Source of the DNA: Candidatus Micrarchaeota archaeon
Lineage (GTDB): Archaea > Micrarchaeota > Micrarchaeia > Anstonellales > Bilamarchaeaceae
Reading direction: 5' to 3'
Length of the DNA: 64,000 nucleotides
Assembly (NCBI GenBank): GCA_964588555.1
Contig: CAZPPT010000002.1
Span: forward strand, 101,979 to 165,978
The notes below the pieces were generated by a model, which did not search any database, was not told the DNA's origin, and saw nothing but the letters and a program-made list of their open reading frames with translations. Made by a program: the position numbers and the translations under genes. Shown here one piece after another: positions 490 through 31,872 of this stretch; the first letter of the stretch is position 1, and every line of letters starts with the position of its first letter.

Positions 490-2337
490 GTGAAACCCAT
501 GGCAAAGGACCCAAAAGATAAAAACAAGAAAAAGAGTTCATCAATTAAGGAAAAAATACGCGAAAAGCTTAAGGAGACAGAAAACGAAGAGCCGACCCTT
601 GAAACCGTGCCTGAAGAGACCTCTCTTGAGGCCGCCACGCCTACTGAAGAACCAGTTATTGAGTCGCAACCGCAAGAGGAGTTTCCAGCCATGGAAGAAA
701 CTGTCGATGCCGAGCCTGCGGCTGAAAATTCACCACCAAGCGGCATGCCATCCGATAATCCGGAGGAACCGCCCGCACCGCATGTCGAAGAGGTGCCAGT
801 TGAGAAGTCGGAAGAACGGGCACGGCCTAGAATCCCAGTTCTTGCACAGTATTCATTTACTACTGAGGGGATCCCAGTACAGGTAAAGATAGTAAAGATA
901 GGCGAATTCGTGCCGCACTACGAGATCACCATGCCGTCTGTCGATGCATGGACAAGAAAGATGCTTGAAGGAAAGCTGCGTGGCGAACTGGTAAGCGAAG
1001 TAAAGCTTGACTTAAGCGAAATCCTTGACCCGAAAAGATACGACGAAGTAAAGGCAAAGTTCATGCAGGGTGCACGGCATATCATAGACCGAAACTTCAA
1101 GGAACAACTCCCTGACGAACATGCACGCCATGTGCTGTCCGTATATCTTATGCAGAACGCACTTGGGCTTGGCAAACTTGAGGGACTTCTTGCTGATGAA
1201 AACCTTGAGGAAATCGTCATCAACAACGCCCGGGAACAGGTTTGGGTGTACCACAAGAAAATCGGCTGGTGCAAGACGAACATATCACTTGAAAGCGAGG
1301 GCCAGGTGTATGATTATGCATCGATGATCGCACGAAAAATCGGCAGGCAGATCAACGTGCTTAACCCAACGCTTGATGCGCACCTCCCAAGCGGGGACCG
1401 TGTCAATGCAACGCTCTTTCCGATATCCCATTTTGGGAACACAATCACAATCAGAAAATTCTCAAAGAACCCCTGGACTATTACAAACCTCATACGGTCT
1501 TCGACGGTTTCTCCAGAAGCTGCGGCACTCATCTGGCTGTGCATGCAAAATGAGCTTTCGCTTCTTGTCGCAGGCGGTACTGGGAGCGGTAAGACTAGTT
1601 TCCTAAACGCAATGTCTGCATTCATCCCGCCAAACCACCGCATCATCAGCATTGAAGACACGCGCGAACTTACGCTCCCTAAATACCTGCACTGGGTACC
1701 GATGGTCACCCGTGAGGCTAACCCCGAAGGAAAGGGGGAGGTCACCATGCTCGACCTCCTCGTAAACGCATTACGGCAGCGTCCTGACCGGATCCTTGTC
1801 GGCGAAATCAGGCGCCAGCGGGAAGCTGAGATCCTTTTTGAAGCAATACACACCGGCCACTCCGTATATGCGACACTTCATGCGGATAATACAGAGCAGG
1901 CAATATCGCGCCTCACCAACCCGCCAATCAACATACCTCCACAGATGCTTGACGCAGTGTCAGGCGTCATCGTCACATTCAGGCACAGGAGGTTCAATAT
2001 CAGGCGGGTGCTTGAGATATCCGAAATGCTAAAACAGGGCAAGTTCAATTCCCTATACCGCTGGACGATCAAGGAATCCGGAAGCGGGTTTACTGATAAG
2101 ATAAAACAGGTTTCAAAAATGACCCGCCTTGCCGACCAGCTTTCTCTCTATGCGGGCATGGATGAACGGGAAATCGCAGATGATGTCGGTGAAAAAAGTT
2201 CAATACTTAAATGGATGGTTGACAACGATTATAGTGACGTAGACCAGGTCGGCCGCATCGTCTCGCACTATTACATGGACCCTGACTCCATTCTTGAGGC
2301 AGTCAAGAAAAACAGGCCATGGGATTTCAGTGAATAG
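490..2337 (+). CDS. type IV pilus / archaellum-type assembly ATPase (FlaI/TadA/VirB11 secretion-ATPase family) with acidic low-complexity N-terminus
   Basis: Walker A LLVAGGTGSGKTSFLNA, Asp/Glu boxes ISIEDTRELTLP and ILVGEIRRQREAE, His box HTGHSVYATLHADN. SD-like GGTGA lies upstream of the ATG. Confidence 0.85.
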   Translation: MKPMAKDPKDKNKKKSSSIKEKIREKLKETENEEPTLETVPEETSLEAATPTEEPVIESQPQEEFPAMEETVDAEPAAENSPPSGMPSDNPEEPPAPHVEEVPVEKSEERARPRIPVLAQYSFTTEGIPVQVKIVKIGEFVPHYEITMPSVDAWTRKMLEGKLRGELVSEVKLDLSEILDPKRYDEVKAKFMQGARHIIDRNFKEQLPDEHARHVLSVYLMQNALGLGKLEGLLADENLEEIVINNAREQVWVYHKKIGWCKTNISLESEGQVYDYASMIARKIGRQINVLNPTLDAHLPSGDRVNATLFPISHFGNTITIRKFSKNPWTITNLIRSSTVSPEAAALIWLCMQNELSLLVAGGTGSGKTSFLNAMSAFIPPNHRIISIEDTRELTLPKYLHWVPMVTREANPEGKGEVTMLDLLVNALRQRPDRILVGEIRRQREAEILFEAIHTGHSVYATLHADNTEQAISRLTNPPINIPPQMLDAVSGVIVTFRHRRFNIRRVLEISEMLKQGKFNSLYRWTIKESGSGFTDKIKQVSKMTRLADQLSLYAGMDEREIADDVGEKSSILKWMVDNDYSDVDQVGRIVSHYYMDPDSILEAVKKNRPWDFSE

Positions 2338-2338
2338 C

Positions 2339-3898
2339 ATGGAAGATTTTTACGCTGCACTTGACACTGCAAAGAGGATAGAAAAGAATGCGTTAGCCCG
2401 CAGTGAATTTTCCGAAAAAATCGAGATAGTAAAAACAATTGACCTTGAACCGCGGGAATTCGAGGACATGACGTATGCGGACCTCGTCAACATGTATGAG
2501 CGCGCGCAGAAGGTAATCAGCGCAACCAAGTCGTTTCAGTCCATGCCCACCGTAACCGCTGGATCAACCGTTCGCTCGGCAGAAGTCAAAAAAATAGACG
2601 TTGAAAGTAAGGTAAAACAAATAACAAATGAAAGCCTTGAAAAGGCGGAGGAATTAAGCCGCGAATTTGAGAAAAAGGCTGAAATCCCCGCACCCTCCAT
2701 AGCGCCACAGCCTGCACCTAAAAAGCCGATTGACGATTTAATGGACCTTGACCTTACGTTTGAAAAGGACACTGCCACCGCGCCGCAAAAAGAATCGGAA
2801 ATTATGTTTGAACGGGAGGCACCTGAGCTCCCAATGGAAAAGGAAGTGCTTCCTGCTGTTGAAATAGAGGAACGAAAAGAAGAAAAACGACCACGCATCA
2901 TGGAAGAGGCAGCCCCCATCGATGAAATGCCTGCGCCGTCCCACGTTAAGCCGATGCCGGGCATTCTTGCTGCAACCGAGGCAAAGCATGCAGAAGGCAA
3001 ATACAGCGAAATAGAGGGACTCCTTCGCCAGGAATTGGGGGGCGAGGGGGATGATGAAAAGATTAAGAAACGGATGCTCAGCCTTACAAAGGATCTTTTC
3101 AGGGAAAAAAGCACGACACAGCGCGAACAAATAAAGCTCCAGATAGTAGTCCTTAAAAACATGCTTGGCAAGTCTAAAAAGCCTCCGAAGGCACGTGCAC
3201 GGCAGGAACAAGATTATTCGGCAGACGTCTATACCACGCTTATGTCAACGCAGCGTATGGAGCTTTCATCTGCAAAGGATACGATACAGACGGAATTCAG
3301 TGAAAAGATAAGCGCTGCAAAGCACAGGTATTTTGATGCGATTCGGGAAGGGCAGGGGGACGACAGTGCGCTCCGTGCTGCATACGATGCGCTTGTAGGC
3401 GAGCTTAACGCCCTTGAGGAACGTGTTGGCGCAGTAACTGCCAGGACAGGCGGCCTGCTTGCGCAAAAACACAGTGCAGAGCTCAAGGGGCTTGGGGGAT
3501 CAGGGTCCCTCCCTACAAAAACCGCACGGGAAATCGAAAAGGCAATTGCCCAAATGAACGGACAATATATGGCTGATCTTGACAACCTAAAGGAAATGCT
3601 TTTCAAGCGTGTCGAATCACTTAAGGAAAGTGCGGCACAGGAAGTACAGGGTACGAAGGCACAAAAAAATACGGCTTCCCAACTAAACTCAGTCATATTT
3701 GAAATAAACGAAACCGACGAAGGCACGCTTCTTTATTACCTTCATTCTAAAAATCCCGCATATTACAAGAAATATGAGCGCCACCATGTATCGCGTGCCG
3801 AAGCAATCGCATACGCAAAAATACTCATGGCAAAGGAGCGCGGGCTCAATGACGCAAGCATACAAAAATATTTCGGGACAATAAATGAAGAAGCGTGA
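2339..3898 (+). CDS. acidic coiled-coil hypothetical protein (pilus-operon member)
   Basis: ORF 2294..3898. The internal Met at 2339 immediately follows the ATPase stop. The protein is E/K-rich with predicted long helices and no recognisable catalytic motif. Confidence 0.45.
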   Translation: MEDFYAALDTAKRIEKNALARSEFSEKIEIVKTIDLEPREFEDMTYADLVNMYERAQKVISATKSFQSMPTVTAGSTVRSAEVKKIDVESKVKQITNESLEKAEELSREFEKKAEIPAPSIAPQPAPKKPIDDLMDLDLTFEKDTATAPQKESEIMFEREAPELPMEKEVLPAVEIEERKEEKRPRIMEEAAPIDEMPAPSHVKPMPGILAATEAKHAEGKYSEIEGLLRQELGGEGDDEKIKKRMLSLTKDLFREKSTTQREQIKLQIVVLKNMLGKSKKPPKARARQEQDYSADVYTTLMSTQRMELSSAKDTIQTEFSEKISAAKHRYFDAIREGQGDDSALRAAYDALVGELNALEERVGAVTARTGGLLAQKHSAELKGLGGSGSLPTKTAREIEKAIAQMNGQYMADLDNLKEMLFKRVESLKESAAQEVQGTKAQKNTASQLNSVIFEINETDEGTLLYYLHSKNPAYYKKYERHHVSRAEAIAYAKILMAKERGLNDASIQKYFGTINEEA

Positions 3899-4773
3899 AA
3901 TATATGGATACCGACACAATAAAAAGCAGACGGAAGCGCGATGAGGCAAGGGGGCCGCTTACTGCCCTTGCGGAAGTGTTGTCGCCACGGTTTCCACTTC
4001 TTAAGAAGAAGCTCACCCTTGCAAACATCCATTATAGCCCAACCGTATTTCTCGAGCGTGTCCTTCTTTCAACCTTGTTTGTGTCCCTTGGGCTCCTTAT
4101 AGCAACTGCAATTTTTTTCCTCCAGACAAATACGTGGTTTGGATACCTGATAATACCGCTTATCGTGTATCCGATCGTTGTGTTCAAATACCTTATGCTT
4201 TACCCTGATGCACTCATCATAAAAAGAAGACGGGCAATCGATTATGAGCTCGTATTTGCAGGACGGCACATGGTCATCGCCCTTAAGTCGGGCATGCCGC
4301 TCTTTGACAGCCTTGTCGGCGTACGGAAAGGATATGGTGAAGTAAGTAAGGAATTTGACAAGATCGTTGAGATGGTGACGCTTGGAACCCCGCTTTCACA
4401 GGCAATACGGGAAGTTGCTGCAGTAAACCCGTCACAATATTTCGTGCGGATACTTATGCAGATCGCAAACTCACTTTCAAGCGGTGCGGATGTCGGCGAG
4501 TCGCTTGAAGTGGTGCTTAACCAGATATCCGAGGAGCAAAAAATTCAGCTTAAGGAATACGGGCAAAAACTGACGCCCATCGTCATGTTCTTCATGGTAT
4601 TTGGGATTATCATGCCCTCGATCGGCATCGTCCTTATTACCGTCATATTTTCCGTGCTTGGCGGCGGGAAGGTGACCTCCTCGATCCTTATCTTGATTGC
4701 GGCATTCATAACCATAACGCAGCTCCTCTTCGTCGGACTGATTGAAAGTTCAAGACCAAAATACCTTATGTGA
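3895..4773 (+). CDS. TadB/FlaJ N-half-like polytopic membrane protein (T2SS-F-like domain)
   Basis: Hydrophobic helices (LLSTLFVSLGLLIATAIFFL, IVMFFMVFGIIMPSIGIVLITVIF) flank a soluble domain. Stop/start overlap with neighbours suggests translational coupling. Start may be the ATG at 3904. Confidence 0.55.
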   Translation: MKYMDTDTIKSRRKRDEARGPLTALAEVLSPRFPLLKKKLTLANIHYSPTVFLERVLLSTLFVSLGLLIATAIFFLQTNTWFGYLIIPLIVYPIVVFKYLMLYPDALIIKRRRAIDYELVFAGRHMVIALKSGMPLFDSLVGVRKGYGEVSKEFDKIVEMVTLGTPLSQAIREVAAVNPSQYFVRILMQIANSLSSGADVGESLEVVLNQISEEQKIQLKEYGQKLTPIVMFFMVFGIIMPSIGIVLITVIFSVLGGGKVTSSILILIAAFITITQLLFVGLIESSRPKYLM

Positions 4774-5840
4774 GTCATATGGCACAAAAACTGTTGGAAG
4801 CGATTGGAAGGTTGTTTTACAACCGCGAGTATATACGAATGCTTGACTACCGGATAAATACTGCCGGCCTGCACCGTTCTGCGGAGGAGTTTGCAGGCGT
4901 GCTCATCCTTGTCACGCTCCTAGGCGGCCTTGCAGCCACGCTGTTTGTGTTAGGTTCAGGCCAATTATCAGGGTCGCTTCAGGGAGTTGCAAATTCCCTC
5001 ATACGCGGTTTTCCTTATGCGCTTCTCGCACTTATTGTGTTTATCGTAATGCTTGTCTTGTCCTATTTTGGGGTAATCGTACTCACCATGTCGGTGCTTG
5101 CAATACAAGGGGATGCGCGACGAAACTCGCTTGAGACCGCGCTTCCTGATTTTCTACTGCTTGTGTCCGCAAACATAAAGGCAGGCATGCCCCTTGACCA
5201 GGCAATGTACCATGCCGCAAAGCCCGAATACGGCCTTATGGCAATAGAAGTGCAGGACATCATCAAACGCTCATTTAGCGGGGAATCGCTTGAAAACTCC
5301 CTTGATATGCTTGCAGAACGGTTTGACTCGCGGATCTTCAAACGGACGATCCTTCTTATAAAGCAGGCATCCGCAACTGGCGGCGAGGTGGCAGCGGTAC
5401 TTGAGCGGACATCGCAGGAAGTAAGAAACACGCTTCTTATCAAAAAGGAAGTTGCCGCATCGCTTATCCTCTATGAAATTTTCATATTATTTGCAGCGAT
5501 CGCAGGGACGCCGTTCCTGTTTGCAGTGTCCGGAAAGCTTATCGAGGTGTTTGAGAAGACGCCGGTCATATCGACAATACCTCAAAGCACAAGCGGGTTT
5601 GCAGGCCAGCTGCCGGGGATCGGGTTTACCGGCGTTGTCATCAGTTCAACTGAGTTTTTCTACTTTACCATACTTACCATATTGATTACGTCGCTCTTTT
5701 CATCATTTATTGTGGGGATTATCCGCAAGGGTACCAAGAACGAAGGTATAAAATACTTCCCGTTCGTATTAGGTGCGTCCTATGTGATGTTTGCGCTTGT
5801 AAACCTAGGGCTTAATGCAGTATTTACAACGATATTATAG
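4770..5840 (+). CDS. TadC/FlaJ C-half-like polytopic membrane protein
   Basis: Second T2SS-F-like repeat with the same TM-soluble-TM architecture. It overlaps the upstream gene by 4 nt. Confidence 0.55.
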   Translation: MSHMAQKLLEAIGRLFYNREYIRMLDYRINTAGLHRSAEEFAGVLILVTLLGGLAATLFVLGSGQLSGSLQGVANSLIRGFPYALLALIVFIVMLVLSYFGVIVLTMSVLAIQGDARRNSLETALPDFLLLVSANIKAGMPLDQAMYHAAKPEYGLMAIEVQDIIKRSFSGESLENSLDMLAERFDSRIFKRTILLIKQASATGGEVAAVLERTSQEVRNTLLIKKEVAASLILYEIFILFAAIAGTPFLFAVSGKLIEVFEKTPVISTIPQSTSGFAGQLPGIGFTGVVISSTEFFYFTILTILITSLFSSFIVGIIRKGTKNEGIKYFPFVLGASYVMFALVNLGLNAVFTTIL

Positions 5841-5854
5841 TAAGAGGTGAAATA

Positions 5855-6454
5855 ATGGTTAGAAAAAAGAGCCGAAGCAAGGCAGCGGCTAAAAAAATAA
5901 AAACCACCGTGCGCGGTCAGGCAGCAATGGAATACCTGATGACATACGGGTGGGCAATATTGGTCATATTGATTGTACTTGCAGTACTTGCGTTCTACCT
6001 GCCCCAATTCTTACGGGCGCAGGACCAGTGTGCGTTTGCACAGCCTGGATTTACGTGCGGGGATGTACGGCCGTTTATACAAAACACAGGCAATACAGTA
6101 AACCTGCGAGCTTCCATATTTAATCAAAATGGCCAGGCAATACATATCCAAAGGGTACTCTGTACCGCTGATGCGCCAGGAAATGTGAATTCTGTCTGGG
6201 GCGAAGTGCCAGCAGAAGGAACAATCACGTCCGCACCATCTGTAACGACCCTAGACCCAGCAAGCGGAGCGCGCATGGAAGTAAATGTAAATTGTTACAG
6301 GGGCGGAAGCGGTACGAACCGTGGATCTGCGTTAAACCTCGCTAAAAACAATGAATTCAGAGGGTACCTATTTATCTGGTACAACTTTGGCAATGAAAAT
6401 CCAGCCCTAGTAACAAGGCAAGTTCAGGCAACCATAACAGGTACGGTAAACTAG
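5855..6454 (+). CDS. type IV pilin-like protein with class III (prepilin) signal peptide
   Basis: N-terminus MVRKKSRSKAAAKKIKTTVRG|QAAMEYLMTYGWAILVILIVL: basic stretch, G-Q cleavage motif, Glu at +5, hydrophobic helix. Strong SD GAGGTGA 8 nt upstream. Confidence 0.6.
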   Translation: MVRKKSRSKAAAKKIKTTVRGQAAMEYLMTYGWAILVILIVLAVLAFYLPQFLRAQDQCAFAQPGFTCGDVRPFIQNTGNTVNLRASIFNQNGQAIHIQRVLCTADAPGNVNSVWGEVPAEGTITSAPSVTTLDPASGARMEVNVNCYRGGSGTNRGSALNLAKNNEFRGYLFIWYNFGNENPALVTRQVQATITGTVN

Positions 6455-7547: not shown

Positions 7548-7775
7548 ATGAAAAATGCAAACATAAATGTAAGGATTGAAGATTCGCTTTTTAAAGAGGT
7601 TAAGGAATACGAATTAGATATCTCAGAAGTGGTCCGTGCTGCACTTATTAGTGAAATAGAAAAGAAAAGGGTAGATAGAATAATGAGAGCACTTGTGAAG
7701 GCAAGCGAAGCAGTAAAAAAGATGAAGGTGAAACAAATTGTAGCAGACGTCAGGGAGATGCGTGAAACGCGATGA
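7548..7775 (+). CDS. antitoxin-like small protein (putative VapB, ribbon-helix-helix-like)
   Basis: 75 aa, charged and helical. It overlaps the downstream PIN gene by 4 nt (ATGA). Confidence 0.45.
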   Translation: MKNANINVRIEDSLFKEVKEYELDISEVVRAALISEIEKKRVDRIMRALVKASEAVKKMKVKQIVADVREMRETR

Positions 7776-8149
7776 AAATCTACGACGCTTCCGCGTTCTT
7801 TGAGCGGATTTTAAAAAAAGAGATAGAACCTGATGCATTTGTTATAGACCTTACGGTCTATGAAATGGGGAACATTACCCTAAAACATGAAAGGAAATTA
7901 AAAACGATAAGTAGGGAAGAGGCCATATCTATACTTACGATCCTAAGTGAATGGTCGCCAGTTATTTTTATCCGCCCGGAGGAAACTCCATTTATATATC
8001 AAACTGCTTCTAATCTTGAACTTACGTTCTACGATGCCGCATACATTTTTTTCTCGCAAAAATTTAATGCAACTTTGGAGACATGTGATAAAACGCTGTA
8101 TGAAAGGGCAAAAAAGCATTGCAGAATTGTTTTAATGAAAATGGAATAA
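7772..8149 (+). CDS. PIN-domain nuclease (VapC-type toxin)
   Basis: MKIYDASAF (N-terminal acidic D), TFYDAAYIF and ETCDKTL fit the conserved PIN acidic residues. Confidence 0.6.
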   Translation: MKIYDASAFFERILKKEIEPDAFVIDLTVYEMGNITLKHERKLKTISREEAISILTILSEWSPVIFIRPEETPFIYQTASNLELTFYDAAYIFFSQKFNATLETCDKTLYERAKKHCRIVLMKME

Positions 8150-9496: not shown

Positions 9497-9790
9497 TTGG
9501 TGATGGTAATGTCAAATATAGTAATAACACATATGTCGTCAAAAGGCCAAGTAGTTATTCCACAGGATATTCGGAAGGAGATACACGCAGAAGAAGGTAC
9601 TGCGTTTGCCGTGTTTGGAAGCAAAGACACAATACTTCTTAAGAAGATTCATAAACCAAACAAAGAGGAACTCAAGAAGGACTGGGAACGGCTTGTTGAA
9701 GAAGGAAATAAAAGAGTAAAGGAACTTGGTATAAAGGAAACGGATGTCGCAAAAATCATTCACCGCGGACGCGGGATTAAATATGATTAA
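9497..9790 (+). CDS. AbrB/SpoVT-family (swapped-hairpin) antitoxin-like protein
   Basis: KGQVVIPQDIRKEI is typical of the AbrB/MazE-like fold. It overlaps the downstream PIN gene. Confidence 0.55.
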   Translation: MVMVMSNIVITHMSSKGQVVIPQDIRKEIHAEEGTAFAVFGSKDTILLKKIHKPNKEELKKDWERLVEEGNKRVKELGIKETDVAKIIHRGRGIKYD

Positions 9791-10106
9791 GATTTTTCTT
9801 GATACAAATGTATTGGTATCCGCTACCTTTTGGAAGGGTAGCGCCTATATCCTAAGAGATTTCAATGCAACTGAAGAAAAGGCAGACGAATACATTCAAA
9901 AATTACTTGAATTTCTGGAAGTAGTTTCACCGACTGAGTATTTCGATATTATAAAAAACGATCCTTCTGATAACAAAATACTTGCAGGGGCTGTTAAATC
10001 TAAATCTGATTTTATTGTTTCCTACGATCGTAAACATGTTTTGGCTCTAAAAAATTTTAAAGGAATATGTATCGTAACGCCGGAAGAGGTTCTTGAAAAG
10101 ATATAA
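9783..10106 (+). CDS. PIN-domain protein (VapC-like toxin)
   Basis: MIKIFLDTNVLVSA N-terminal PIN motif, and SYDRKHV near the C-terminus. ORF listed from 9744; the internal Met at 9783 is preferred. Confidence 0.55.
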   Translation: MIKIFLDTNVLVSATFWKGSAYILRDFNATEEKADEYIQKLLEFLEVVSPTEYFDIIKNDPSDNKILAGAVKSKSDFIVSYDRKHVLALKNFKGICIVTPEEVLEKI

Positions 10107-10114: not shown

Positions 10115-11392
10115 ATGACAAAAGTATACATTCAAACATACGGCTGCACACTAAACCAGGCAGATACGGACATGATGAAGGCGATACTTCTTGAACGCGG
10201 GTACAAGATAACTGAAAACGAAGAGGAAAGCGATGCAATAATCCTAAATACATGCACCGTAAAAGGAGCGACCGAAAGCAAAATCACGGAAAAAATCAAA
10301 GCGCTTACGGCGAAACGTAAAAAGGTGGTGGTTGCGGGCTGCCTTACTGCAAATGAAGAACGGATAAGGAAAATTGCACCCTATGCACCGATTGTCGGGA
10401 CATCGTCCCTTAAATCAATTGATAGTGCGGTAGAAGCTGCATTTCATGAAAAACCGCGCGTATTCAAATCATTTGAATCAAAGGATGCCCTCCCCAAACT
10501 AATCACCGCACCGATCATGCGCATCCCAATTAATGACGGGTGCACATCCGCATGCCACTTCTGCCAAACAAAGCTTGCACGGCCGTTCCTAAGGAGCTAT
10601 TCGCCAAAGACGATTGCAAAATGGATAGATGAAAGCATACGAAAGGGGGCGCGTGAAATCCAGCTCACAAGCATGGATTCCGGCGCATATGGGATTGATT
10701 TGAAAACAAATTTGATTGAGCTTCTCAAATCAATCTCGCATGATGACAGTGAAACCGTGGCGCGCGAACCGTTCCTTATCCGTTTAGGGATGATCAACCC
10801 AAACCACGCGTACCGTATGCGTACGGATCTCATTCTGGCATTAAAGCATCCCCGATTCTATAAGTTTCTTCATCTTCCCGTACAGGCAGGAAGCGAACGG
10901 GTATGTAATGAAATGAACCGGGACCACGGCATACGGGAGTTTGTAGAGGTTGCGCGCGATTTTAGGAACGAATTTCCCGAAGGCACGCTTGCAACTGACA
11001 TCATTGTAGGTTATCCAACTGAAACCGAATCTGATTTTGAAGAAACCATGGAACTCCTAAGGACAATACGGCCTGATGTAACGAACGTTTCAAAATTCAG
11101 CCCGCGGCCGGGGACGGAGGCAAAAAAACTTAAGCAATTAAACACAGAAGAGCTCAAGCGAAGGAGCATGCTGGTAAGTGCGCTTGCAAAAAAAATAAGC
11201 GGCGAAAGAAACAGAGAATGCGTCGGTAAAATATACCGCGTCCTCGTAATTGAAAAGGCAGCGGATTTCAAGGCAAGAAATGAAAACTATAAACAGGTAG
11301 TGATAAAGGATTTTGAGGGAAAACGAGGGGATGTGGTAGAAGTAAAAATATATAATGCGAAAGATACTGCACTATTTGGCAAACTGATCTAG
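10115..11392 (+). CDS. MiaB-like radical-SAM methylthiotransferase (tRNA t6A/i6A methylthiotransferase family) with C-terminal TRAM-like domain
   Basis: MTTase N-domain YIQTYGCTLNQADTD, radical-SAM CTSACHFCQT (CxxxCxxC), C-terminal beta-rich TRAM-like region. Confidence 0.8.
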   Translation: MTKVYIQTYGCTLNQADTDMMKAILLERGYKITENEEESDAIILNTCTVKGATESKITEKIKALTAKRKKVVVAGCLTANEERIRKIAPYAPIVGTSSLKSIDSAVEAAFHEKPRVFKSFESKDALPKLITAPIMRIPINDGCTSACHFCQTKLARPFLRSYSPKTIAKWIDESIRKGAREIQLTSMDSGAYGIDLKTNLIELLKSISHDDSETVAREPFLIRLGMINPNHAYRMRTDLILALKHPRFYKFLHLPVQAGSERVCNEMNRDHGIREFVEVARDFRNEFPEGTLATDIIVGYPTETESDFEETMELLRTIRPDVTNVSKFSPRPGTEAKKLKQLNTEELKRRSMLVSALAKKISGERNRECVGKIYRVLVIEKAADFKARNENYKQVVIKDFEGKRGDVVEVKIYNAKDTALFGKLI

Positions 11393-11944
11393 TTACTGGT
11401 ACACGAACACGTCCATAACTGCAAGCTGTTCGCGGTCAATTTCATCATATGCGCCGCTGACAGCAGGCTTGATAACCGTAATGACACGGCGTACGCGTGC
11501 AATGTTCCTGTTATTTCGGTTAATGGATTGGATGTTCTCCCCGACCCGCAGTACGACTGCTTCACGGCTTAGGGGATCCGTTTCCTGCAACGTCACTTCG
11601 GCAGTCATAAAATAAGGGGTTGCAAGCTTGCTTCTGACATCTTCAGGCGCAAGGCTAATTGCACATTCGATCTTATCGCGATCAAGGCGGCGGTCTTCCC
11701 AGCTTACAGCAAAGCCAAGCTGGGCCATTGCAGCGCAGTCCGCGGGATTTTGACCCGAGGGCAGGTAGCCCGGGGTAAGAAGTGCATCGCTTATACGGAT
11801 TGCCTCCTTTGTAAGGTCGCCACTCTGCACATCCAGGGAGGTACGAAGGCTCTGCCAATAGGAAAGAAGTGCAAGTAGTGCAAGGATAAAAATAACCGTT
11901 GCGATGATCGCGTCAAAACTAAAATATTGTCCCTTGTACATACG
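11393..11944 (-). CDS. pilin-like protein with class III signal peptide
   Basis: MRMYKG|QYFSFDAIIATVIFILALLALL when started at the internal Met. ORF listed to 12025. Confidence 0.45.
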   Translation of the reverse strand, partial: RMYKGQYFSFDAIIATVIFILALLALLSYWQSLRTSLDVQSGDLTKEAIRISDALLTPGYLPSGQNPADCAAMAQLGFAVSWEDRRLDRDKIECAISLAPEDVRSKLATPYFMTAEVTLQETDPLSREAVVLRVGENIQSINRNNRNIARVRRVITVIKPAVSGAYDEIDREQLAVMDVFVYQ

Positions 11945-11951
11945 CATAAGT

Positions 11952-12449
11952 TCACCTTGGTTGCTCAACATATACGGTGGTTCCGTCATTATAGAAAACA
12001 AGCCGATTTGAACAACGGACGCCACCTATGGCCTTGTCACTGGCCAGAACCCCATCGCCTTCAATGCACCCCGGGGAAGCGGGCGGAGGCTCGTCAAATT
12101 GGTAATTATATGTCGCAAGCGGATACGCGATGGTTATGGGACCGTACGTCCCTTGCCAGTTAAACAAAAGCCTCCCATTTTGGGGTTGGAACTCAACCGT
12201 ATACGGCCTTCCTTCAAGATTGACCCTAAATGTCATGTTGGCGTGGAACCCCCTGCCGCTTCGCACGGCAAGATTAGCCGCATCTGCAAAACCCGCGCCG
12301 GTCTCCTGTGCAAGAATCCCTTCCCTTCGCTGGACTTCCTGCGCCTGAATAAATGCGGTCACTGAGAATGCGACGATAAGCACAATAAGAAAGACGCTTG
12401 CATAGATGAAAAATTCCGTCGCGACTTGTCCACGTACCATAGTAATCAA
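11952..12449 (-). CDS. pilin-like protein with class III signal peptide
   Basis: MITMVRG|QVATEFFIYASVFLIVLIVAF. Confidence 0.5.
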   Translation of the reverse strand: MITMVRGQVATEFFIYASVFLIVLIVAFSVTAFIQAQEVQRREGILAQETGAGFADAANLAVRSGRGFHANMTFRVNLEGRPYTVEFQPQNGRLLFNWQGTYGPITIAYPLATYNYQFDEPPPASPGCIEGDGVLASDKAIGGVRCSNRLVFYNDGTTVYVEQPR

Positions 12450-12868
12450 CTTTTGATAATCACCGGTTGACCCGCTGATTGGCTATCTACTTCAAGCACA
12501 ATGCGGGTAAGCCCGATGCTGCCCGTAATTAAGCGGGGCTCTACCTTTGCAAAAAAAGGCGATGATGCTTCGTATACCCCGGTTGACGTCCTGAGTGTAA
12601 GCGTGACCTCATTATCAGCAATGCGAAGCGATTCGGTATTGCTTGGAAGCGCAACTGAAAGCACCCGTTGTGCATACGGGCCCTGCGTATACACCTCGTT
12701 TATGCTGTCCGCAATGGTCTTTGAGACTGCGTTTGCCTGTGCACGTGCGGCATCCTCATACCCATATTGTGAAACCGTAAGCATAAGGATTATGATTGGC
12801 ACGGTGAATGCAAGAAGTATGCCAAACGTAACAAGAAGCTCAAGCGATATCTGGCCGCGCATGGTCAT
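12446..12868 (-). CDS. pilin-like protein with class III signal peptide
   Basis: MTMRG|QISLELLVTFGILLAF, the classic QxSxE prepilin motif. ORF listed to 12898. Confidence 0.55.
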   Translation of the reverse strand: MTMRGQISLELLVTFGILLAFTVPIIILMLTVSQYGYEDAARAQANAVSKTIADSINEVYTQGPYAQRVLSVALPSNTESLRIADNEVTLTLRTSTGVYEASSPFFAKVEPRLITGSIGLTRIVLEVDSQSAGQPVIIKS

Positions 12869-14490
12869 CCGCACTCCGCCCCGACTCCCGGCACACACGC
12901 AAGTGTGTCACGTTGTGGGCCAAGAAAATCGTCTTGTGCCCCTGTCCCAAGCCTGAAATGCCCAACAAGCGATGGCTGGGAACACATCTCAAAATCCTTG
13001 CAGCCAGGCATTCCACGGACTTTAGTGCCCTGAATGCCGGTAAATAGTTCGCGCGCCGCCCTGCTTACGTCATCAGGATAGGTGGTTTGAGGCGATGAAA
13101 TGACAGCGGAATGCCCGCCTATATACGAGCCAACCATGAATGTCTCAATGCCATAATTTGAGCTTGAGCGCGTGAAACTGTTGCTAAAGAGGCGCTGGAA
13201 ATAGGAGGGAGAACGTTCGTTTCCGGTGTAATAGCTGCATGCGGCAAAATCGCGCAGGTTTTCAATGTTAAAAAGGCGCCCGTTTGCCGAAAGCTTGTTT
13301 TCAGGCGTGGCAAGCACTTCACGCGGGCTATAACGGGTTACAAAAAGCGCACAGTGTGAGGCGTTCTGGTTTCCTTCAAGGTCAGGGCACAGTGCGCCAT
13401 GGTCGCTTGTAAAGCCGGATATTACGACAAACGGCTTGTCAGTCTGCTCAAAGCCGGCACTCAGCGAGGCGACGCAGAGCGAGTTATACTGGATTGCGTT
13501 AAATGTATCTTCCTCATCAGGACTTGTAGGGCATGCCGATGCGACAAGCCGTGGTTTTTCAACAAGAATATACGCGCCAAACTCAGTGTGGTCAACTGCG
13601 TTATTAGTTCGTGCACCTATATTAAGGATGTCACCATAAGTGCCAAAGAGGATGTATTTTTCACGGTCAATCGGATCGATTGCGCCAGGATTATTCGCAA
13701 CCTCGTCCGCTGAAACCAAAAGCCCATAAAACCACCCTTGGCCTTCGGCCCCGCCAAATACCTGTGCCGGGACAAGGTCGCTGTCCTTTGAATAGGGGGA
13801 ATAAAAGAAGAACTGTTTTTCTATGTTTCCTGACTTTTGGGTTTTCCATGCCCGCGTTATTGCCGGATCAATAAGGCCGGAAATAGGAAGGTCGCCACTG
13901 ACGGCATAATCCCGCTCAATGAATGAAATGCGGTTTTTCTCCTCAAGGATAAGATGGAGGTTGAACGAATAGCTTACGTTTTCACGCGTGTTTTGGAACA
14001 CGTCAAAATTTGAGATTGAATAATTGCTTACCTGCATGCCGGTTTGGGAGATGGACGTGTTTAACCGGTCTATCCAAGCGCGAAACGTTGCAGACTGCCT
14101 CATGGAGGGAAGCTGTGCCAGCGGATTTTCAAAGTGGGTGCCTTCGGTAGTACCATGTGAAAAAAGGTCGTACATGATTGCCCGTATCTGAGTGCGCTCG
14201 GCAGGCGAATCCGCACCTCCGCCTGAACGCACAGGGTTGTCAACTGAATAACCGTTAAGCGTTTTCAATGCGTCGTAAAGCGCAATGTCGCTGAATTGCC
14301 GTATCTCTTCATCGGTTATTTGCATTGCGATAAGCTCAAGGTTTGACGTCCGAAAGCGGTCTGCATAGCGACGTTCGCTTTCCTGTAATGCGCTTGTCCA
14401 CACGGAAAGCGAGACGAGGATATACCCAAGAATAACAAATACGATGATAACAAAGAAAAAACCCTTTTTAGATGAGATGTTGCCGTGCAT
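12865..14490 (-). CDS. large N-terminally anchored hypothetical protein inside the pilin operon (possible pilus-associated adhesin/assembly protein)
   Basis: 541 aa with N-terminal TM FFFVIIVFVILGYILVSLSVW and no enzymatic motifs. Flanked by pilin-like genes on both sides. Confidence 0.4.
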   Translation of the reverse strand: MHGNISSKKGFFFVIIVFVILGYILVSLSVWTSALQESERRYADRFRTSNLELIAMQITDEEIRQFSDIALYDALKTLNGYSVDNPVRSGGGADSPAERTQIRAIMYDLFSHGTTEGTHFENPLAQLPSMRQSATFRAWIDRLNTSISQTGMQVSNYSISNFDVFQNTRENVSYSFNLHLILEEKNRISFIERDYAVSGDLPISGLIDPAITRAWKTQKSGNIEKQFFFYSPYSKDSDLVPAQVFGGAEGQGWFYGLLVSADEVANNPGAIDPIDREKYILFGTYGDILNIGARTNNAVDHTEFGAYILVEKPRLVASACPTSPDEEDTFNAIQYNSLCVASLSAGFEQTDKPFVVISGFTSDHGALCPDLEGNQNASHCALFVTRYSPREVLATPENKLSANGRLFNIENLRDFAACSYYTGNERSPSYFQRLFSNSFTRSSSNYGIETFMVGSYIGGHSAVISSPQTTYPDDVSRAARELFTGIQGTKVRGMPGCKDFEMCSQPSLVGHFRLGTGAQDDFLGPQRDTLACVPGVGAECG

Positions 14491-14498
14491 ATGATCAA

Positions 14499-15116
14499 CT
14501 ACGTAAAGACGATTAATTCGACAACCGCCGTCTCTGCCGCCGCACCCTCATCAACGATTTGCGGCAGGTCGCATAGCGGAATTCCTGCACCGCCTATTCC
14601 CTGGCACGTGTTGTGCCGATAGGGATTCTCAGGCGGTTTGACTGCCTCATTATACTGGAACACGAGTATATGTGCCGAAGCGCTCAGGCGGTCCTTGTGC
14701 GGTTTATGGGTTCGGAATGCCGGAGTCTCATCGGCAGTTGAATAAACTTTAGTCGGGATACCGCTTTGGTCAAGAATATTTACCGTGTACCCATATTGCG
14801 GCGGAATGAGCTGATCAAGGAAAAACTTAAATTCCCTATCCGGATCCTGTGCCCTGAACGTAAGATACTCAAGAAACGTTGCGTCCCCGACCGCGTCGCA
14901 ATAACTCGGGGTCCCCGGGTAAAGGGCTCGGTCGCAATAGGTCTGGGAAAGCGAGACGAGCGAATCCTTTGCAAGAAAATGCGCCTGCGTGAGCGTATTA
15001 TAATACGCTGAAGGGATGCTTGAGAAAAAAATCATGGTATATATTGCCGCAAGGGAAAGCGTGAACGCTACAAATGCATCAAGTGAGAAGATAAACCCCT
15101 TTTGTGATTTCTGCAT
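14499..15116 (-). CDS. pilin-like protein with class III-type signal peptide
   Basis: MQKSQKG|FIFSLDAFVAFTLSLAAIYTMIFF. First gene of the minus-strand pilin operon. Confidence 0.45.
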   Translation of the reverse strand: MQKSQKGFIFSLDAFVAFTLSLAAIYTMIFFSSIPSAYYNTLTQAHFLAKDSLVSLSQTYCDRALYPGTPSYCDAVGDATFLEYLTFRAQDPDREFKFFLDQLIPPQYGYTVNILDQSGIPTKVYSTADETPAFRTHKPHKDRLSASAHILVFQYNEAVKPPENPYRHNTCQGIGGAGIPLCDLPQIVDEGAAAETAVVELIVFT

Positions 15117-15252
15117 CAGAATATATTCGGTTAGAACGTTTAAAAAGGATAGCGAAAAGGGGATTATAGTTCGGCTGCCTTCATTTATAAGAAAAGGACA
15201 TCTGCAAATGGAAAAGAATATTAATTAAAACTTAAGATTGTAAAGAGTATTC

Positions 15253-17067: not shown

Positions 17068-18243
17068 TCAAAACACAAGTGACGCAATCCACGGAAGCGC
17101 AATGAACGTGCCAATGCTTGCGCCGATGTTCGTATACATGACAACAAGAAGTATGCGCGTTACTTTGTTTTGTTCAAAATCCCGGTAGCTGTTGAGATTA
17201 TTGAGGCCTTCAAAATCTTTCACTTGAGGAAGGGACATCTTTGCCTGCGCAAGCCCTGAAAACCACCCTGCTGCAAGGAGCGGATGAAGCGTCGTAACGG
17301 GCGCACTTGCAAATGCCGCCGCAATGGCAATGGGATGCGCACGGGCAAGAAGCGCGCCAATCGCTGCCAGCGTGCCGGTTACAAGCGTCCACAAGATAAT
17401 CGTATTGAGGCCGGCAGTAACGCCCTGCGTAAGAAATGCATAACCGATCAAGCCAAGGACAAGAAGTGGGATAACAAGTGTTATAAGGTGCAGGCCCGGC
17501 CTTTCCTTTGGAACGGTGATTATTTCCGCAATCGAATAATCCTGTGCAATATGCGACGCAATACCGTCAACGTGGCCCGCGCCGACCACTGCGACGATCT
17601 TGTTGCCTGACAGGTCACGGATCTTGCGCGCAATAAAAAGGTCGCGTTCATCAATAAGAACCTTTTTAATGGTCGGAAAATCGCGCCCGAGCTTTTGCAA
17701 AAGCGCGCTTAGCGTGTCGTGCTCCTTTAATTTCTCGACAGTCTGTTCGTTGATCTCCTGCCTGTTTGGGGAAAAGAGGCCCCCCACAAGGTCGGCAAGG
17801 AAACGAACCTTTTCCCAAAGAGTAAGGAAATGAAACGCGCGCTTAAGCGTGATACGGACATCGCGGTCAAGAAGTGCAACGGGTACCTTGTTCCTGCTCG
17901 CCGTATCAATTGCCTCAAGCATCTCGGAACCGGGTTTCTCATGAAGCCGCGCGCCGATCTGCCGCTGAAAGTTCTTAAGGATAAGCGTAAGGAGAAATAC
18001 CCAGACCTGGCCGGTTTTTATGAGTTCCGCAACATTAAGCTCCTGGAATTTTTTTTCGTTCCGAAGTGCGTCATACCTGCCTGCGTCAAGCTCCACTCCC
18101 ACGACATCCGGCTTCTGTGCCTCGATGGTCGCGGCGACAAGCTCACGGGATTTTTTTGAAACGTGTGCGGTGCCGACAAGGATGATCTCCTTTCCATTAT
18201 AACTGACCCTTTTAAGTACCATGCCATTCGCCAAGTCATTCAA
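17068..18243 (-). CDS. TraB/PrgY-family protein
   Basis: LVGTAHVSKKS motif plus a C-terminal polytopic membrane domain. Confidence 0.6.
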   Translation of the reverse strand: MNDLANGMVLKRVSYNGKEIILVGTAHVSKKSRELVAATIEAQKPDVVGVELDAGRYDALRNEKKFQELNVAELIKTGQVWVFLLTLILKNFQRQIGARLHEKPGSEMLEAIDTASRNKVPVALLDRDVRITLKRAFHFLTLWEKVRFLADLVGGLFSPNRQEINEQTVEKLKEHDTLSALLQKLGRDFPTIKKVLIDERDLFIARKIRDLSGNKIVAVVGAGHVDGIASHIAQDYSIAEIITVPKERPGLHLITLVIPLLVLGLIGYAFLTQGVTAGLNTIILWTLVTGTLAAIGALLARAHPIAIAAAFASAPVTTLHPLLAAGWFSGLAQAKMSLPQVKDFEGLNNLNSYRDFEQNKVTRILLVVMYTNIGASIGTFIALPWIASLVF

Positions 18244-18661
18244 GTTTTACATGTATGAGGAGGCCGTCGTACGTAATGTTAAATCGCCGCAGTCCCGGAG
18301 AGGGCGTGTCAAGTATGACAGATTCCTCGAGTGGGAAACGCACCGTATCGACAATATCCGTATCGCCGCTTCTTGTAGATGCCTGGACAATGACTTCGCC
18401 GCCGCCCCCAAGGTTTCGCACCTCGACCTTCTTTACACGAGGAGGAATAAATATTTCCGCAACCACGGATGAATCCGTCCCCAGGTTTCCGACCGAATTT
18501 ATGAGGTATGCAAGACGGGTTGAAACAAGTTCCGCCTGCACTTGGTAAAGTTGTTCGTAGCTCTCAGTACTCTTTAGGTAAATAGTAAATAAAAGAGGGA
18601 TAAAAATAACGAGTATTGCCGCGATAATGACCATTAATTCAGTACTGATCTGCCCTTTCAT
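18236..18661 (-). CDS. pilin-like protein with class III signal peptide
   Basis: MKG|QISTELMVIIAAILVIFIPLLF. Confidence 0.5.
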   Translation of the reverse strand: MKGQISTELMVIIAAILVIFIPLLFTIYLKSTESYEQLYQVQAELVSTRLAYLINSVGNLGTDSSVVAEIFIPPRVKKVEVRNLGGGGEVIVQASTRSGDTDIVDTVRFPLEESVILDTPSPGLRRFNITYDGLLIHVKLE

Positions 18662-31074: not shown

Positions 31075-31872
31075 CTACCTGGGAAACCCAAGCGCCGCTT
31101 TCTTCATTTTATATGCAAACTCCATAAGGAGTCTGAGGTTCTCGATATCTGCACTATTGTAGCGGATAAGCGTTTCAAGCGCTCCGCTGTCGCCTTTCTT
31201 ATACTTACGCCAGAGACGAACTGCATCAAATCCAGTAAGGTGTGCTATATCGCCATCACGCTCAAACCCGAATTCTTTCTCAATCTTCTTAAGCCCGCCC
31301 TTGTACCCGAGTGATCGAAGAACAAACCGTAAATCAATATGAAGTAAGGGGATTTGGATTTCAGGAACTTGTGCGCGCAAAAATGGGATATCAAACATCG
31401 TCCCGTTAAATGTTATGACTGCTTTATATGGCGCGAGCGCATGCGGGAGTTCGTCGATATTTTTTCCTTGTACGAACGTTTTGGTCGTTTTTCCATCATA
31501 TAAGCCAACAACAGTTACCTCGCTATGGTGCGGCACAAGACCGGTTGTCTCAATATCTAAAAATACAGTTTTCTCTGCAAAGTGGGGCCATGAGCGCCAT
31601 GTCTCTTTTGATGGAATAACTGATGAAAAATAGGTGCTGTTTAATTCATGGAGCGCCACTTTTGATGAGAAAATTTCGGGGATAAATCGGCTAAATTTCG
31701 CATGGTTCTGACATGTGTCAAGAAACTGATCCCATGTTCTGATCCCTTCTTCCCATAATTTTAATTCAGTTTTTTGTCCTACTGACGGAAGATGAATGAA
31801 TGTGTTTTCGAGCATGTGACTGTTTATCAGACAAATGATAAAAAGCTTTATGCGCTCTGAAGCGATTTCCAT
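31075..31872 (-). CDS. RNase H-like (DEDD-type) 3'-5' exonuclease domain protein, YprB/COG3359-like
   Basis: FLDIETTGL (Exo I) and HSEVTVVGLYDG, as seen in exonuclease family members. Confidence 0.5.
   Translation of the reverse strand: MEIASERIKLFIICLINSHMLENTFIHLPSVGQKTELKLWEEGIRTWDQFLDTCQNHAKFSRFIPEIFSSKVALHELNSTYFSSVIPSKETWRSWPHFAEKTVFLDIETTGLVPHHSEVTVVGLYDGKTTKTFVQGKNIDELPHALAPYKAVITFNGTMFDIPFLRAQVPEIQIPLLHIDLRFVLRSLGYKGGLKKIEKEFGFERDGDIAHLTGFDAVRLWRKYKKGDSGALETLIRYNSADIENLRLLMEFAYKMKKAALGFPR

What the first reader, a model, noticed from the sequence alone, without database searches (positions are those of the whole stretch)
11393..15116. Second pilin operon: four pilin-like genes plus a 541-aa anchored protein
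Five overlapping minus-strand genes. Four begin with class-III signals (KGF.., RGQISLEL, RGQVATEF, KGQYFSFD). One encodes a 541-aa N-terminally anchored protein with no recognisable domain, which could be a tip adhesin or a minor-pilin-like assembly factor. This locus has no ATPase or platform genes, so it probably depends on the locus at 490-5840. Such multi-pilin sets with a large partner are poorly characterised in archaea.
Basis: partly seen in the sequence, partly recalled or inferred. Interest (0 to 1): 0.55.

Follow-up and report, generated by a model that had tools for sequence, protein, structure and literature searches.

The report
Five-gene minor-pilin operon of Micrarchaeota
This is a tightly packed operon of five pilin-like surface proteins, kept in the same order across the tiny symbiotic archaea called Micrarchaeota, that most likely builds the starting or tip piece of a hair-like pilus; it is a new lineage-specific example of a known kind of system.

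Summary
Five minus-strand genes fill 11393-15116, separated by +8, -4, +5 and +7 nt. All five, including the 541-aa protein, start with a short basic leader, then G or A, then a hydrophobic helix.

The window comes from a Micrarchaeota (DPANN) genome. The same five genes, in the same order, occur in about 50 other Micrarchaeota species genomes and in divergent lineages. No assembly ATPase lies within their flanks.

The N-terminal charge pattern is fixed:
- g3 and g4 have Q+1 and E+5, the Epd/DUF361-type signature.
- g1 and g5 have D+6.
- The large g2 has no acidic residue in +1..+10 in 0 of 118 representatives, as in the bacterial apical minor pilins GspK/PilK/CpaL.

The AlphaFold model of g2 (pLDDT 89) has a long N-terminal helix, a three-strand sheet and a large C-terminal domain with no solved relative.

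Best reading: a minor-pilin initiation/tip set that works in trans with the Epd-like machinery at 490-6454, which encodes an ATPase, two TadC-like proteins and a Q+1/E+5 pilin. Processing, complex formation and the partner ATPase are inferred, not shown.

Novelty: a new member of a known kind. Interest is moderate.

The parts
14499..15116 (-). g1, 205 aa pilin-like protein. Signal MQKSQKG|FIFSLDAFVAF, with D at +6. Conserved Cys pair (C171, C182).
   Evidence: ORF. Motif [KR][AG]|F[IV]FSLD[AS]FVAF found in 50 orthologues, often with only a 3-aa leader (MRA|). Alignment A3 has D13 invariant. hhalign relates it to g5 over the N-terminal 50 residues (prob 93%, E 4e-7). No Pfam or NCBIfam hit.
12865..14490 (-). 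g2, 541 aa large pilin-like protein. Signal KKG|FFFVIIVF with no acidic residue near the N-terminus. N-terminal helix plus three-strand sheet module (about 1-205), then a large Cys-rich C-terminal domain. Proposed apical (cap) subunit.
12446..12868 (-). g3, 140 aa pilin-like protein. Signal MTMRG|QISLELLV, with Q+1 and E+5.
   Evidence: ORF. Its start overlaps the g2 stop by 4 nt. Motif [KR][GA]|Q.S.E in 51 orthologues. A4 has Q6 and E10 invariant. hhalign relates it to g4 over about 100 columns (prob 86%, E 6e-6). Pfam Class_IIIsignal matches only at E 0.44, below threshold.
11952..12440 (-). g4, 162 aa pilin-like protein. Signal MVRG|QVATEFFIY, with Q+1 and E+5.
   Evidence: ORF. Motif [KR][GA]|Q[VA]A.EF..Y in 50 orthologues. 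A5 has Q5, E9 and Y13 invariant. 4 of 33 family members hit Pfam Class_IIIsignal (PF04021) and 2 hit DUF7266, at E<0.05.
11393..11944 (-). g5, 183 aa pilin-like protein. Signal MRMYKG|QYFSFDAII, with Q+1 and D+6. Its stop codon abuts the stop of the convergent MiaB-like gene at 11392.
15117..15252 (-). Intergenic region upstream of g1, shared with the divergent dihydroorotase-like gene. TTTTTAAA lies 22 nt upstream of the g1 ATG. Possible TATA box of a leaderless or short-leader operon transcript.
   Evidence: Sequence read directly. Promoter function is inferred, not tested.
490..6454 (+). Candidate partner machinery (Epd-like / clade-1-type type IV pilus locus). Contains a FlaI/TadA-family ATPase (490-2337), an unknown 534-aa protein (2294-3898), two single-T2SSF-domain TadC-like proteins (3895-4773, 4770-5840) and a 199-aa pilin (5855-6454, TVRG|QAAMEYL, Q+1/E+5).
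   Evidence: Pfam T2SSE 3e-40 and T2SSF 1e-17 and 9e-14. NCBIfam FlaI 286 bits (below the 550 cut-off) and TadA family 203 bits. It is the only T2SSE ATPase in the window. Functional linkage to the cassette is inferred.
18236..18661 (-). Stand-alone 141-aa pilin (MKG|QISTELMV, Q+1/E+5), a paralogue of g3.
   Evidence: Class-III-like scan. hhalign against the g3 family: prob 98.8%, E 8e-17, 27% identity. g3 HMM hit at 7.5e-21.

Best explanation
The five genes form one operon of type IV pilin-like proteins made with class III (prepilin-type) signal peptides. An unlinked prepilin peptidase would cut after the conserved G/A. This would leave five subunits whose hydrophobic N-terminal helices can enter a pilus.

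They are most likely the minor-pilin set that nucleates and caps a pilus. In this model g2 sits at the apex. It is the large subunit and the only one without an acidic residue near its N-terminus, and its C-terminal domain would be exposed for contact. The two E+5 subunits (g3, g4) and the two D+6 subunits (g1, g5) stack beneath it. The major pilin then polymerises under this complex, driven by an ATPase/TadC platform encoded elsewhere. Here the most likely platform is the Epd-like locus at 490-6454, whose own pilin has the same G-1/Q+1/E+5 signature.

Shown: gene structure, phylum-wide synteny, conserved signal motifs and charge pattern, helix-plus-sheet models, and absence of a linked ATPase.

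Inferred: cleavage, incorporation in a pilus, the order of subunits, the tip/initiation role and the identity of the partner machinery.
For: - Tight operon with junctions of +8, -4, +5 and +7 nt.
- Same five families in the same order in about 50 of 57 Micrarchaeota species genomes and in divergent lineages.
- [KR][GA] directly precedes a hydrophobic helix of about 20 aa in all five families, and leaders are often only 3 aa.
- Invariant residues: E+5 and Q+1 in g3 and g4, Q+1 and D+6 in g5, D+6 in g1.
- G-1/Q+1/E+5 is the published signature of Epd/DUF361 pilins. In M. maripaludis the minor-pilin operon and the ATPase plus two-TadC locus are also separate (PMC3875500).
- g2 has no D/E at +1..+10 in 0 of 118 representatives. 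PilK/GspK homologues invariably lack Glu+5 and are apical. CpaL is a roughly 600-aa pilin-like tip subunit of Tad pili (PMC13533445).
- Conserved Cys pairs in g1, g2, g4 and g5 fit an extracellular location.
- An ATPase, two TadC-like proteins and a Q+1/E+5 pilin lie 4.9 kb away.
- Clade-1 systems are described as having at least 5 minor pilins (PMC4858521).
Against: - No curated family threshold is met. Pfam Class_IIIsignal scores E 0.44 for g3 and matches only 4 of 33 g4 members.
- D at +6 rather than E at +5 in g1 and g5 has no established precedent that I could cite.
- No prepilin peptidase is present in the 64-kb window.
- The cassette is never next to an ATPase in other genomes, so its partner cannot be read from synteny.
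- Strong motif conservation in the g2 C-domain (GQGWFYG, LRDFxxCGYY, APSYLQRL, RGMPGCK) suggests a specific activity beyond being a cap, which the model does not explain.
- No expression or protein data exist.
Confidence: 0.6

Rival explanations
1. The cassette does encode minor pilins, but it serves a different machinery from the one at 490-6454. That would be a clade-2 ('euryarchaeal') ATPase/TadC pair encoded elsewhere in the genome, or both machineries interchangeably.
For: - The Micrarchaeote Mia14 has two pilus systems. The run of seven class-III-signal genes sits next to the clade-2 ATPase/TadC, not the clade-1 one (PMC5498576).
- g5 and g4 family members weakly match DUF7287, DUF7288 and DUF7266. 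I recall these Pfam families as haloarchaeal, but I did not verify that here, and no paper in the library mentions them.
- The cassette is unlinked to any ATPase in 57 other genomes.
- ATPase/TadC modules can share pilin sets (PMC4858521).
Against: - The Q+1/E+5 signature of g3 and g4 is that of Epd/clade-1 pilins. It is reported absent from Haloferax and Sulfolobus pilins (PMC3875500).
- The pilin inside the 490-6454 locus has the same signature.
- No second ATPase exists in this 64-kb window.
- The DUF72xx matches are below threshold.
Confidence: 0.2
2. The five proteins form their own short heteromeric filament or pseudopilus. This would be a T2SS-like piston or a dedicated host-contact fibre. 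One of the small subunits, perhaps with the g3 paralogue at 18236-18661, would act as the main building block instead of priming the major pilus.
For: - The operon is self-contained and conserved as a unit across the phylum.
- A stand-alone g3 paralogue exists.
- The set of four small subunits plus one large acid-less subunit mirrors GspH-I-J-K of type II secretion pseudopili (PMC13533445).
- Micrarchaeota are host-dependent, and pili are proposed as their interface (PMC5498576).
Against: - No gene in the operon is duplicated or otherwise marked as a high-copy subunit.
- A separate pilin with the same signature sits beside the ATPase.
- Archaea have no outer membrane, so a secretion piston has no obvious task.
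- No evidence distinguishes this reading from the tip-complex reading.
Confidence: 0.12
3. The proteins are not processed pilins. They would be bitopic membrane proteins with uncleaved N-terminal anchors that form a surface complex unrelated to type IV filaments, and the K/R-G motif would only be the usual positive-inside flank of a signal anchor.
For: - No curated pilin or class III model passes threshold.
- The g5 fold search returns sensor-like domains, not pilins.
- No peptidase is present in the window.
Against: - A generic anchor would not keep an invariant G/A at one position, Q at the next, and E exactly four residues later across 50 genomes in several paralogous families.
- Many leaders are only M-[KR]-[GA].
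- Micrarchaeota do encode an A24 prepilin peptidase, unlinked to the pilus genes (PMC5498576).
Confidence: 0.06

Closest known systems
Epd (clade 1 / 'System 1') type IV pili of Methanococcus maripaludis and relatives: minor pilins EpdA/B/C plus the neighbouring class-III-signal genes
   Same: - Class III signals ending in G, with Q+1 and E+5.
- Several minor pilins in one operon together with a large protein.
- That operon lies apart from the locus holding the ATPase and two TadC-like platform genes.
- Additional stand-alone pilins are scattered in the genome (PMC3875500; PMC4858521; preprint 10.64898/2026.04.22.720090).
   Different: - No detectable sequence homology to any curated family. 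Homology to EpdA-C could not be tested because no arCOG profiles or Epd sequences were available.
- No EppA-type peptidase is in or near the operon.
- Two of the five subunits carry D+6 instead of E+5.
- The large subunit itself carries a class III signal and lacks the DUF2341/PilY-like domain described for clade-1 adhesins.
Bacterial tip-initiation complexes: GspH-I-J-K (T2SS), FimU-PilV-W-X (T4aP), CpaJ-K-L (Tad)
   Same: - A small conserved set of minor pilins encoded together.
- The largest subunit lacks the acidic residue near its N-terminus, while the smaller ones keep it.
- The large subunit is a pilin-like N-module followed by a big extra domain, as in CpaL (about 600 aa) and GspK (PMC13533445).
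   Different: - No sequence membership: no T2SSI/J/K, N_methyl or TadE Pfam hits at E<=1.
- There are five subunits, forming two paralogous pairs (g1~g5, g3~g4).
- The host is an archaeon with a single membrane.
Clade-2 pilus locus of the Micrarchaeote 'Ca. Mancarchaeum acidiphilum' Mia14 (MIA14_0252-0260)
   Same: Same phylum. It is a run of class-III-signal 'pilin/flagellin' genes plus a 'component with class III signal peptide' (PMC5498576, Supplementary Table 2).
   Different: There the pilin genes are adjacent to an ATPase and TadC, whereas here and in 57 other genomes they are not. Whether the proteins are homologous was not testable, because no Mia14 sequences were available.
Pfam DUF7287 / DUF7288 / DUF7266 (uncharacterised archaeal families)
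   Same: 13 of 33 g5-family members match DUF7287 across nearly the full profile. 3 match DUF7288. 2 of 33 g4-family members match DUF7266.
   Different: All matches are below the gathering score (window g5: 23 bits against 27). The families have no known function, and no paper in the library mentions them.

Membership tests
Archaeal class III signal peptide (prepilin-type) proteins | Short basic leader ending in K/R at -2 and G/A at -1, directly followed by a hydrophobic helix of about 20 residues | tested here: met
   All five window proteins and 49-53 orthologues per family show it. Leaders are often only 3 aa.
Archaeal class III signal peptide (prepilin-type) proteins | Match to the curated Pfam model PF04021 (Class_IIIsignal, formerly DUF361) above its gathering score | tested here: not met
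   g3 scores E 0.44, 11 bits against 23.7. 4 of 33 g4 relatives match at E<0.05. g1, g2 and g5 give none.
Archaeal class III signal peptide (prepilin-type) proteins | Cleavage by a prepilin peptidase (PibD/FlaK/EppA, peptidase A24) encoded in the same genome | not testable with these tools
   No A24-like ORF was found in the 64-kb window: motif scan, and a multi-TM ORF list with Pfam run on some of those ORFs. The rest of the genome is not available. Another Micrarchaeote has one unlinked A24 peptidase (PMC5498576).
Epd-type (clade 1) pilins | G at -1, Q at +1 and E at +5 (PMC3875500) | tested here: met
   Met for g3, g4, the 199-aa pilin and the 141-aa pilin. Only partly met for g5 (Q+1, D+6). 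Not met for g1 (F+1, D+6) or g2 (F+1, no acid).
Epd-type (clade 1) pilins | Sequence homology to EpdA/EpdB/EpdC families (arCOG05055, 05053, 06584) | not testable with these tools
   No arCOG profiles or M. maripaludis sequences were available. NCBIfam and Pfam gave no hit.
Epd-type (clade 1) pilus system | Secretion ATPase plus two separate TadC-like platform genes in the genome | tested here: met
   490-2337 is T2SSE (3e-40). 3895-4773 and 4770-5840 each carry one T2SSF domain. Clade assignment of the ATPase by phylogeny was not done. Some clade-2 loci also have two tadC genes.
Type IV pilin fold | Long N-terminal alpha-helix packed against an antiparallel beta-sheet, with significant similarity to solved pilins | tested here: inconclusive
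Bacterial GspK/PilK/PilX/CpaL apical minor pilins | Absence of the acidic residue at +5 while partner minor pilins keep it | tested here: met
   0 of 118 g2 representatives have D/E at +1..+10. E+5 is invariant in g3 and g4.
Bacterial GspK/PilK/PilX/CpaL apical minor pilins | Sequence or fold membership (Pfam T2SSK, or a GspK-like fold with the C-terminal strand completing the pilin sheet) | tested here: not met
   No Pfam hit at E<=1. No GspK, PilX or CpaL chain appears among significant fold matches. The C-terminal strand contact could not be inspected. This resemblance is functional analogy only.
Pfam DUF7287 | Score at or above the gathering threshold (27 bits) | tested here: not met
   Window g5 scores 23 bits, E 1.3e-4. 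13 of 33 relatives match at E<0.01, best 6.3e-5. It is a remote relative at best.

The most novel reading that the evidence does not exclude
The cassette is the archaeal counterpart of the bacterial tip-initiation complex. A fixed five-subunit assembly is capped by the acid-less g2. It licenses polymerisation of Epd-type pili and displays the conserved, structurally novel g2 C-terminal domain as the contact organ through which Micrarchaeota attach to their host cells. This would imply that priming by an apical E5-less pilin predates the split between archaeal and bacterial type IV filaments.
Probability: 0.3. Interest if true: 0.7.

Novelty: new member of a known kind. Interest (0 to 1): 0.45.

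Why it matters
How archaeal type IV pili start to assemble, and what sits at their tip, is essentially unknown. Published models place archaeal minor pilins at the base by analogy only (PMC4858521). This operon offers a clean, phylum-wide set of five candidate subunits. Its charge pattern (one acid-less large subunit, two E+5, two D+6) makes a specific, testable prediction about subunit order.

Micrarchaeota are tiny host-dependent archaea whose pili are suspected to mediate host contact. The conserved 541-aa protein is therefore a concrete candidate for that interface. The five families are currently unannotated 'hypothetical proteins' with no Pfam entry.

Tried and rejected
- Pfam and NCBIfam scans of all five proteins gave nothing above threshold. 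Member-by-member Pfam scans of four family alignments gave only sub-threshold DUF7287/7288/7266 and Class_IIIsignal hits.
- PDB sequence searches with the g2, g3 and g4 profiles gave only chance-level hits.
- Foldseek of the g2 model against the PDB found nothing at E<=1e-3. The afdb50 library was unavailable.
- A profile search with g5 to reach other phyla listed only Micrarchaeota in the 120 rows shown.
- tblastn of g5 against plasmids, aimed at annotated haloarchaeal relatives, found no match.
- The archaellum was considered and rejected. There are no archaellins or FlaH/FlaG/FlaF, and the FlaI model scores 286 against a cut-off of 550.
- A bindosome-type substrate-binding protein was considered for g2 and rejected, because there is no SBP domain or fold match.
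- N-glycosylation sequon density was computed and was not informative.
- A literature search for DUF7287-7289 found no papers.


Full report
**1. Observation**

The ORF listing shows five minus-strand ORFs that together span exactly 11393-15116:
- g1: 14499-15116, 205 aa.
- g2: 12865-14490, 541 aa.
- g3: 12446-12868, 140 aa.
- g4: 11952-12440, 162 aa.
- g5: 11393-11944, 183 aa.

An independent gene caller on a public copy of the contig called the same five genes (205, 541, 140, 162 and 192 aa). With the start codons nearest the signal motifs, the junctions are +8, -4, +5 and +7 nt. The genes are therefore packed like an operon, although only g2/g3 truly overlap. A TTTTTAAA element lies 22 nt upstream of the g1 ATG. 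It could be the TATA box of a leaderless transcript, but this is an inference. The g5 stop codon directly abuts the stop of the convergent MiaB-like gene at 11392.

**2. Source and distribution**

The 541-aa protein has 35 homologues in the 5.8-billion-protein collection, and every named one is from Micrarchaeota. A profile search of 1.84 billion cluster representatives finds 517 clusters at E<=1e-3 and 176 at E<=1e-30. The ten remote ones I looked up are again Micrarchaeota wherever a name exists.

A scan of one genome per GTDB species returned 57 loci, nearly all titled Micrarchaeota or its sublineages; a few records carry only a generic "archaeon" title or the name "Candidatus ainarchaeum". 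In these loci phmmer finds g1-g5 in the same order in about 50. The exceptions are mostly cut contigs, plus four divergent loci (L059-L062) where phmmer did not detect g3-g5. Very divergent lineages, with g2 at 20-34% identity, keep the same five genes in the same order (L059; L063 and L064). The window itself is ordinary chromosome. It carries ScpA, Cdc48, a beta-CASP nuclease and HMG-CoA synthase, and ORFs I labelled UvrA/B from their N-terminal sequence without a family scan.

**3. The N-termini**

Across about 50 orthologues per family the motifs are:
- g1: [KR][AG]|F[IV]FSLD[AS]FVAF.
- g2: [KR]G|F[FL]F[TV].
- g3: [KR][GA]|Q.S.E.
- g4: [KR][GA]|Q[VA]A.EF..Y.
- g5: [KR]G|QYFSFDA.

Each motif is followed by a hydrophobic helix of about 20 residues. 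Many leaders are only three residues long, such as MRA| or MKG|. The alignments make several residues invariant: E+5 and Q+1 in g3 and g4, Q+1 and D+6 in g5, and D+6 in g1.

The 541-aa protein is not just "anchored". It has the same kind of signal, but no acidic residue. Of 142 representatives, 118 are full-length with the motif, and 0 of those 118 have D or E at +1..+10.

Profile-profile comparison groups the small proteins into two paralogous pairs: g1~g5 (93%, E 4e-7) and g3~g4 (86%, E 6e-6). g2 stands alone.

**4. Structure**

The AlphaFold2 model of g2 used 34 sequences and scored pLDDT 89 and pTM 0.81. It has a 50-residue N-terminal helix (8-57), three further helices, a three-strand antiparallel sheet (152-202) and a large mixed alpha/beta C-terminal domain.
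- Foldseek and sequence searches of the PDB give nothing.

The architecture therefore fits a pilin "lollipop", but the fold test is formally inconclusive.

The g2 family has very strongly conserved C-domain motifs (GQGWFYG, LRDFxxCGYY, APSYLQRL, RGMPGCK) and conserved cysteines. Its N-module (profile 1-300) and C-module (385-500) are universal, while the middle is missing in 15-20% of members.

**5. Database families**

Nothing passes threshold in Pfam or NCBIfam.
- g5 is a remote relative of the uncharacterised DUF7287. The window protein scores 23 bits against a cut-off of 27. 13 of 33 relatives match at E<0.01, and 3 match DUF7288.
- A few g4 relatives touch Class_IIIsignal (PF04021) and DUF7266.

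**6. Surroundings**

At 490-6454 on the plus strand lies a type IV pilus machinery:
- a FlaI/TadA-family ATPase (T2SSE 3e-40; FlaI model 286 bits, below its 550 cut-off);
- an unknown 534-aa protein;
- two TadC-like proteins with one T2SSF domain each;
- a 199-aa pilin with TVRG|QAAMEYL.

It is the only such ATPase in the window. A further stand-alone pilin at 18236-18661 (MKG|QISTELMV) is a clear paralogue of g3 (98.8%, E 8e-17). No prepilin peptidase is present in the window. In none of the 57 other genomes is an ATPase or TadC found in the flanks held (up to 8 kb per side); about 25 of those loci have full flanks on both sides.

**7. Comparison with what is known**

*Epd pili.* Nair et al. 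(PMC3875500) describe Epd pilins of M. maripaludis as having leaders ending in G, Q at +1 and E at +5. That signature is absent from Sulfolobus and Haloferax pilins. They also note that the minor-pilin operon, the ATPase plus two-TadC locus and the stand-alone pilins sit at separate places in the genome. This is the layout seen here.

*Clade 1 systems.* Makarova et al. (PMC4858521) describe clade-1 systems as an ATPase, two TadC and at least five minor pilins. A 2026 preprint reports this "System 1" in DPANN.

*Mia14.* Golyshina et al. (PMC5498576) report that the Micrarchaeote Mia14 has two pilus systems and a single unlinked A24 peptidase:
- a clade-1 locus with an ATPase and two TadC;
- a clade-2 locus with an ATPase, a TadC and seven class-III-signal genes.

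The kind of system is therefore known, also in this phylum. I found no description of this particular five-gene cassette, its phylum-wide fixed order or its charge pattern.

*Bacterial tip complexes.* PilK/GspK homologues invariably lack Glu+5 and are the apical subunit of the tip-initiation complex. CpaL of Tad pili is a roughly 600-aa pilin-like protein with a large extra domain (PMC13533445). g2 mirrors this in function-relevant features but not in sequence or demonstrable fold. I therefore treat it as an analogy, not membership.

**8. Most likely mechanism**

An unlinked prepilin peptidase removes the short leaders. The five mature subunits then assemble by their N-terminal helices into a minor-pilin complex. 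g2 sits at the apex because it has no acidic residue, and so no subunit above it to pair with. The E+5 pair (g3, g4) and the D+6 pair (g1, g5) sit beneath it. The major pilin then polymerises under this complex, driven in trans by an ATPase/TadC platform.

The matching G-1/Q+1/E+5 signature of the pilin in the 490-6454 locus and the Epd-like layout favour that locus as the partner. The Mia14 precedent and the complete lack of ATPase linkage elsewhere keep a clade-2 partner open.

Shown: gene structure, synteny, motifs and model architecture. Inferred: cleavage, assembly, subunit order, tip role and partner.

**9. Verdict**

This is a lineage-specific, so far unannotated member of the known class of archaeal minor-pilin operons. 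It has an unusually clear and testable parallel to bacterial tip-initiation complexes, and a large subunit whose C-terminal domain has no solved relative. Interest is moderate at 0.45.

Noticed in passing
window 18236-18661 (-): Stand-alone 141-aa pilin gene (MKG|QISTELMV, Q+1/E+5). It is a paralogue of g3 (hhalign 98.8%, 27% identity). It lies between a TraB-family gene and a 380-aa ORF upstream that looks CBS-domain-like from its sequence (not scanned).
   Followed up: partly
window 2294-3898 (+): 534-aa acidic protein, probably coiled-coil, with no Pfam or NCBIfam hit. It sits between the pilus ATPase and the two TadC-like genes and overlaps the end of the ATPase gene. It may be an uncharacterised cytoplasmic component of the machinery. 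Mia14 also has an unlisted gene (0171) at this position.
   Followed up: no
window 35931-44458 (-): Three consecutive large ORFs (1183 aa with 43 Cys and about 5 hydrophobic segments; 554 aa; 1104 aa). None has a Pfam match. They may be surface or secreted proteins.
   Followed up: no
window 58129-63987 (-): Four consecutive ORFs (467, 625, 415, 456 aa), each with 1-2 hydrophobic segments and no Pfam match.
   Followed up: no
window 11390-11395: The stop codon of the plus-strand MiaB-like radical-SAM gene (ends 11392) and the stop codon of g5 (starts 11393) abut with no spacer, so there is no room for terminators between the convergent genes. A MiaB-like gene is also the convergent neighbour of the cassette in the distant locus L005.
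   Followed up: no
window 52001-54000: GC content drops to 0.34, against about 0.47 elsewhere. The drop coincides with an AAA_14/DUF4143 ATPase gene (52584-53894). A second AAA_14/DUF4143 gene lies at 31848-33083 in another lower-GC stretch. These may be mobile or recently acquired.
   Followed up: no
window 9497-10106 (+) and 7772-8149 (+): An AbrB/MazE-like plus PIN-domain pair lies at 9497-10106 (families listed for the same genes in L001). The 125-aa ORF at 7772-8149 looks PIN-like from its sequence but has no family hit on record. Both lie between the pilus machinery and the pilin cassette and may be toxin-antitoxin modules.
   Followed up: no
L005 1116-6830 and L063 2003-6694: In two divergent Micrarchaeota the cassette lies next to a giant secreted protein (1904 aa and 1563 aa; the latter has a faint CBM_X2 hit). 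These may be adhesins associated with the pilin set.
   Followed up: no
L002 8889-9221 and L003 8819-9160: A small (110-113 aa) Cys-rich protein with an N-terminal hydrophobic segment lies immediately upstream of g1 in several genomes. It is absent from the window.
   Followed up: no
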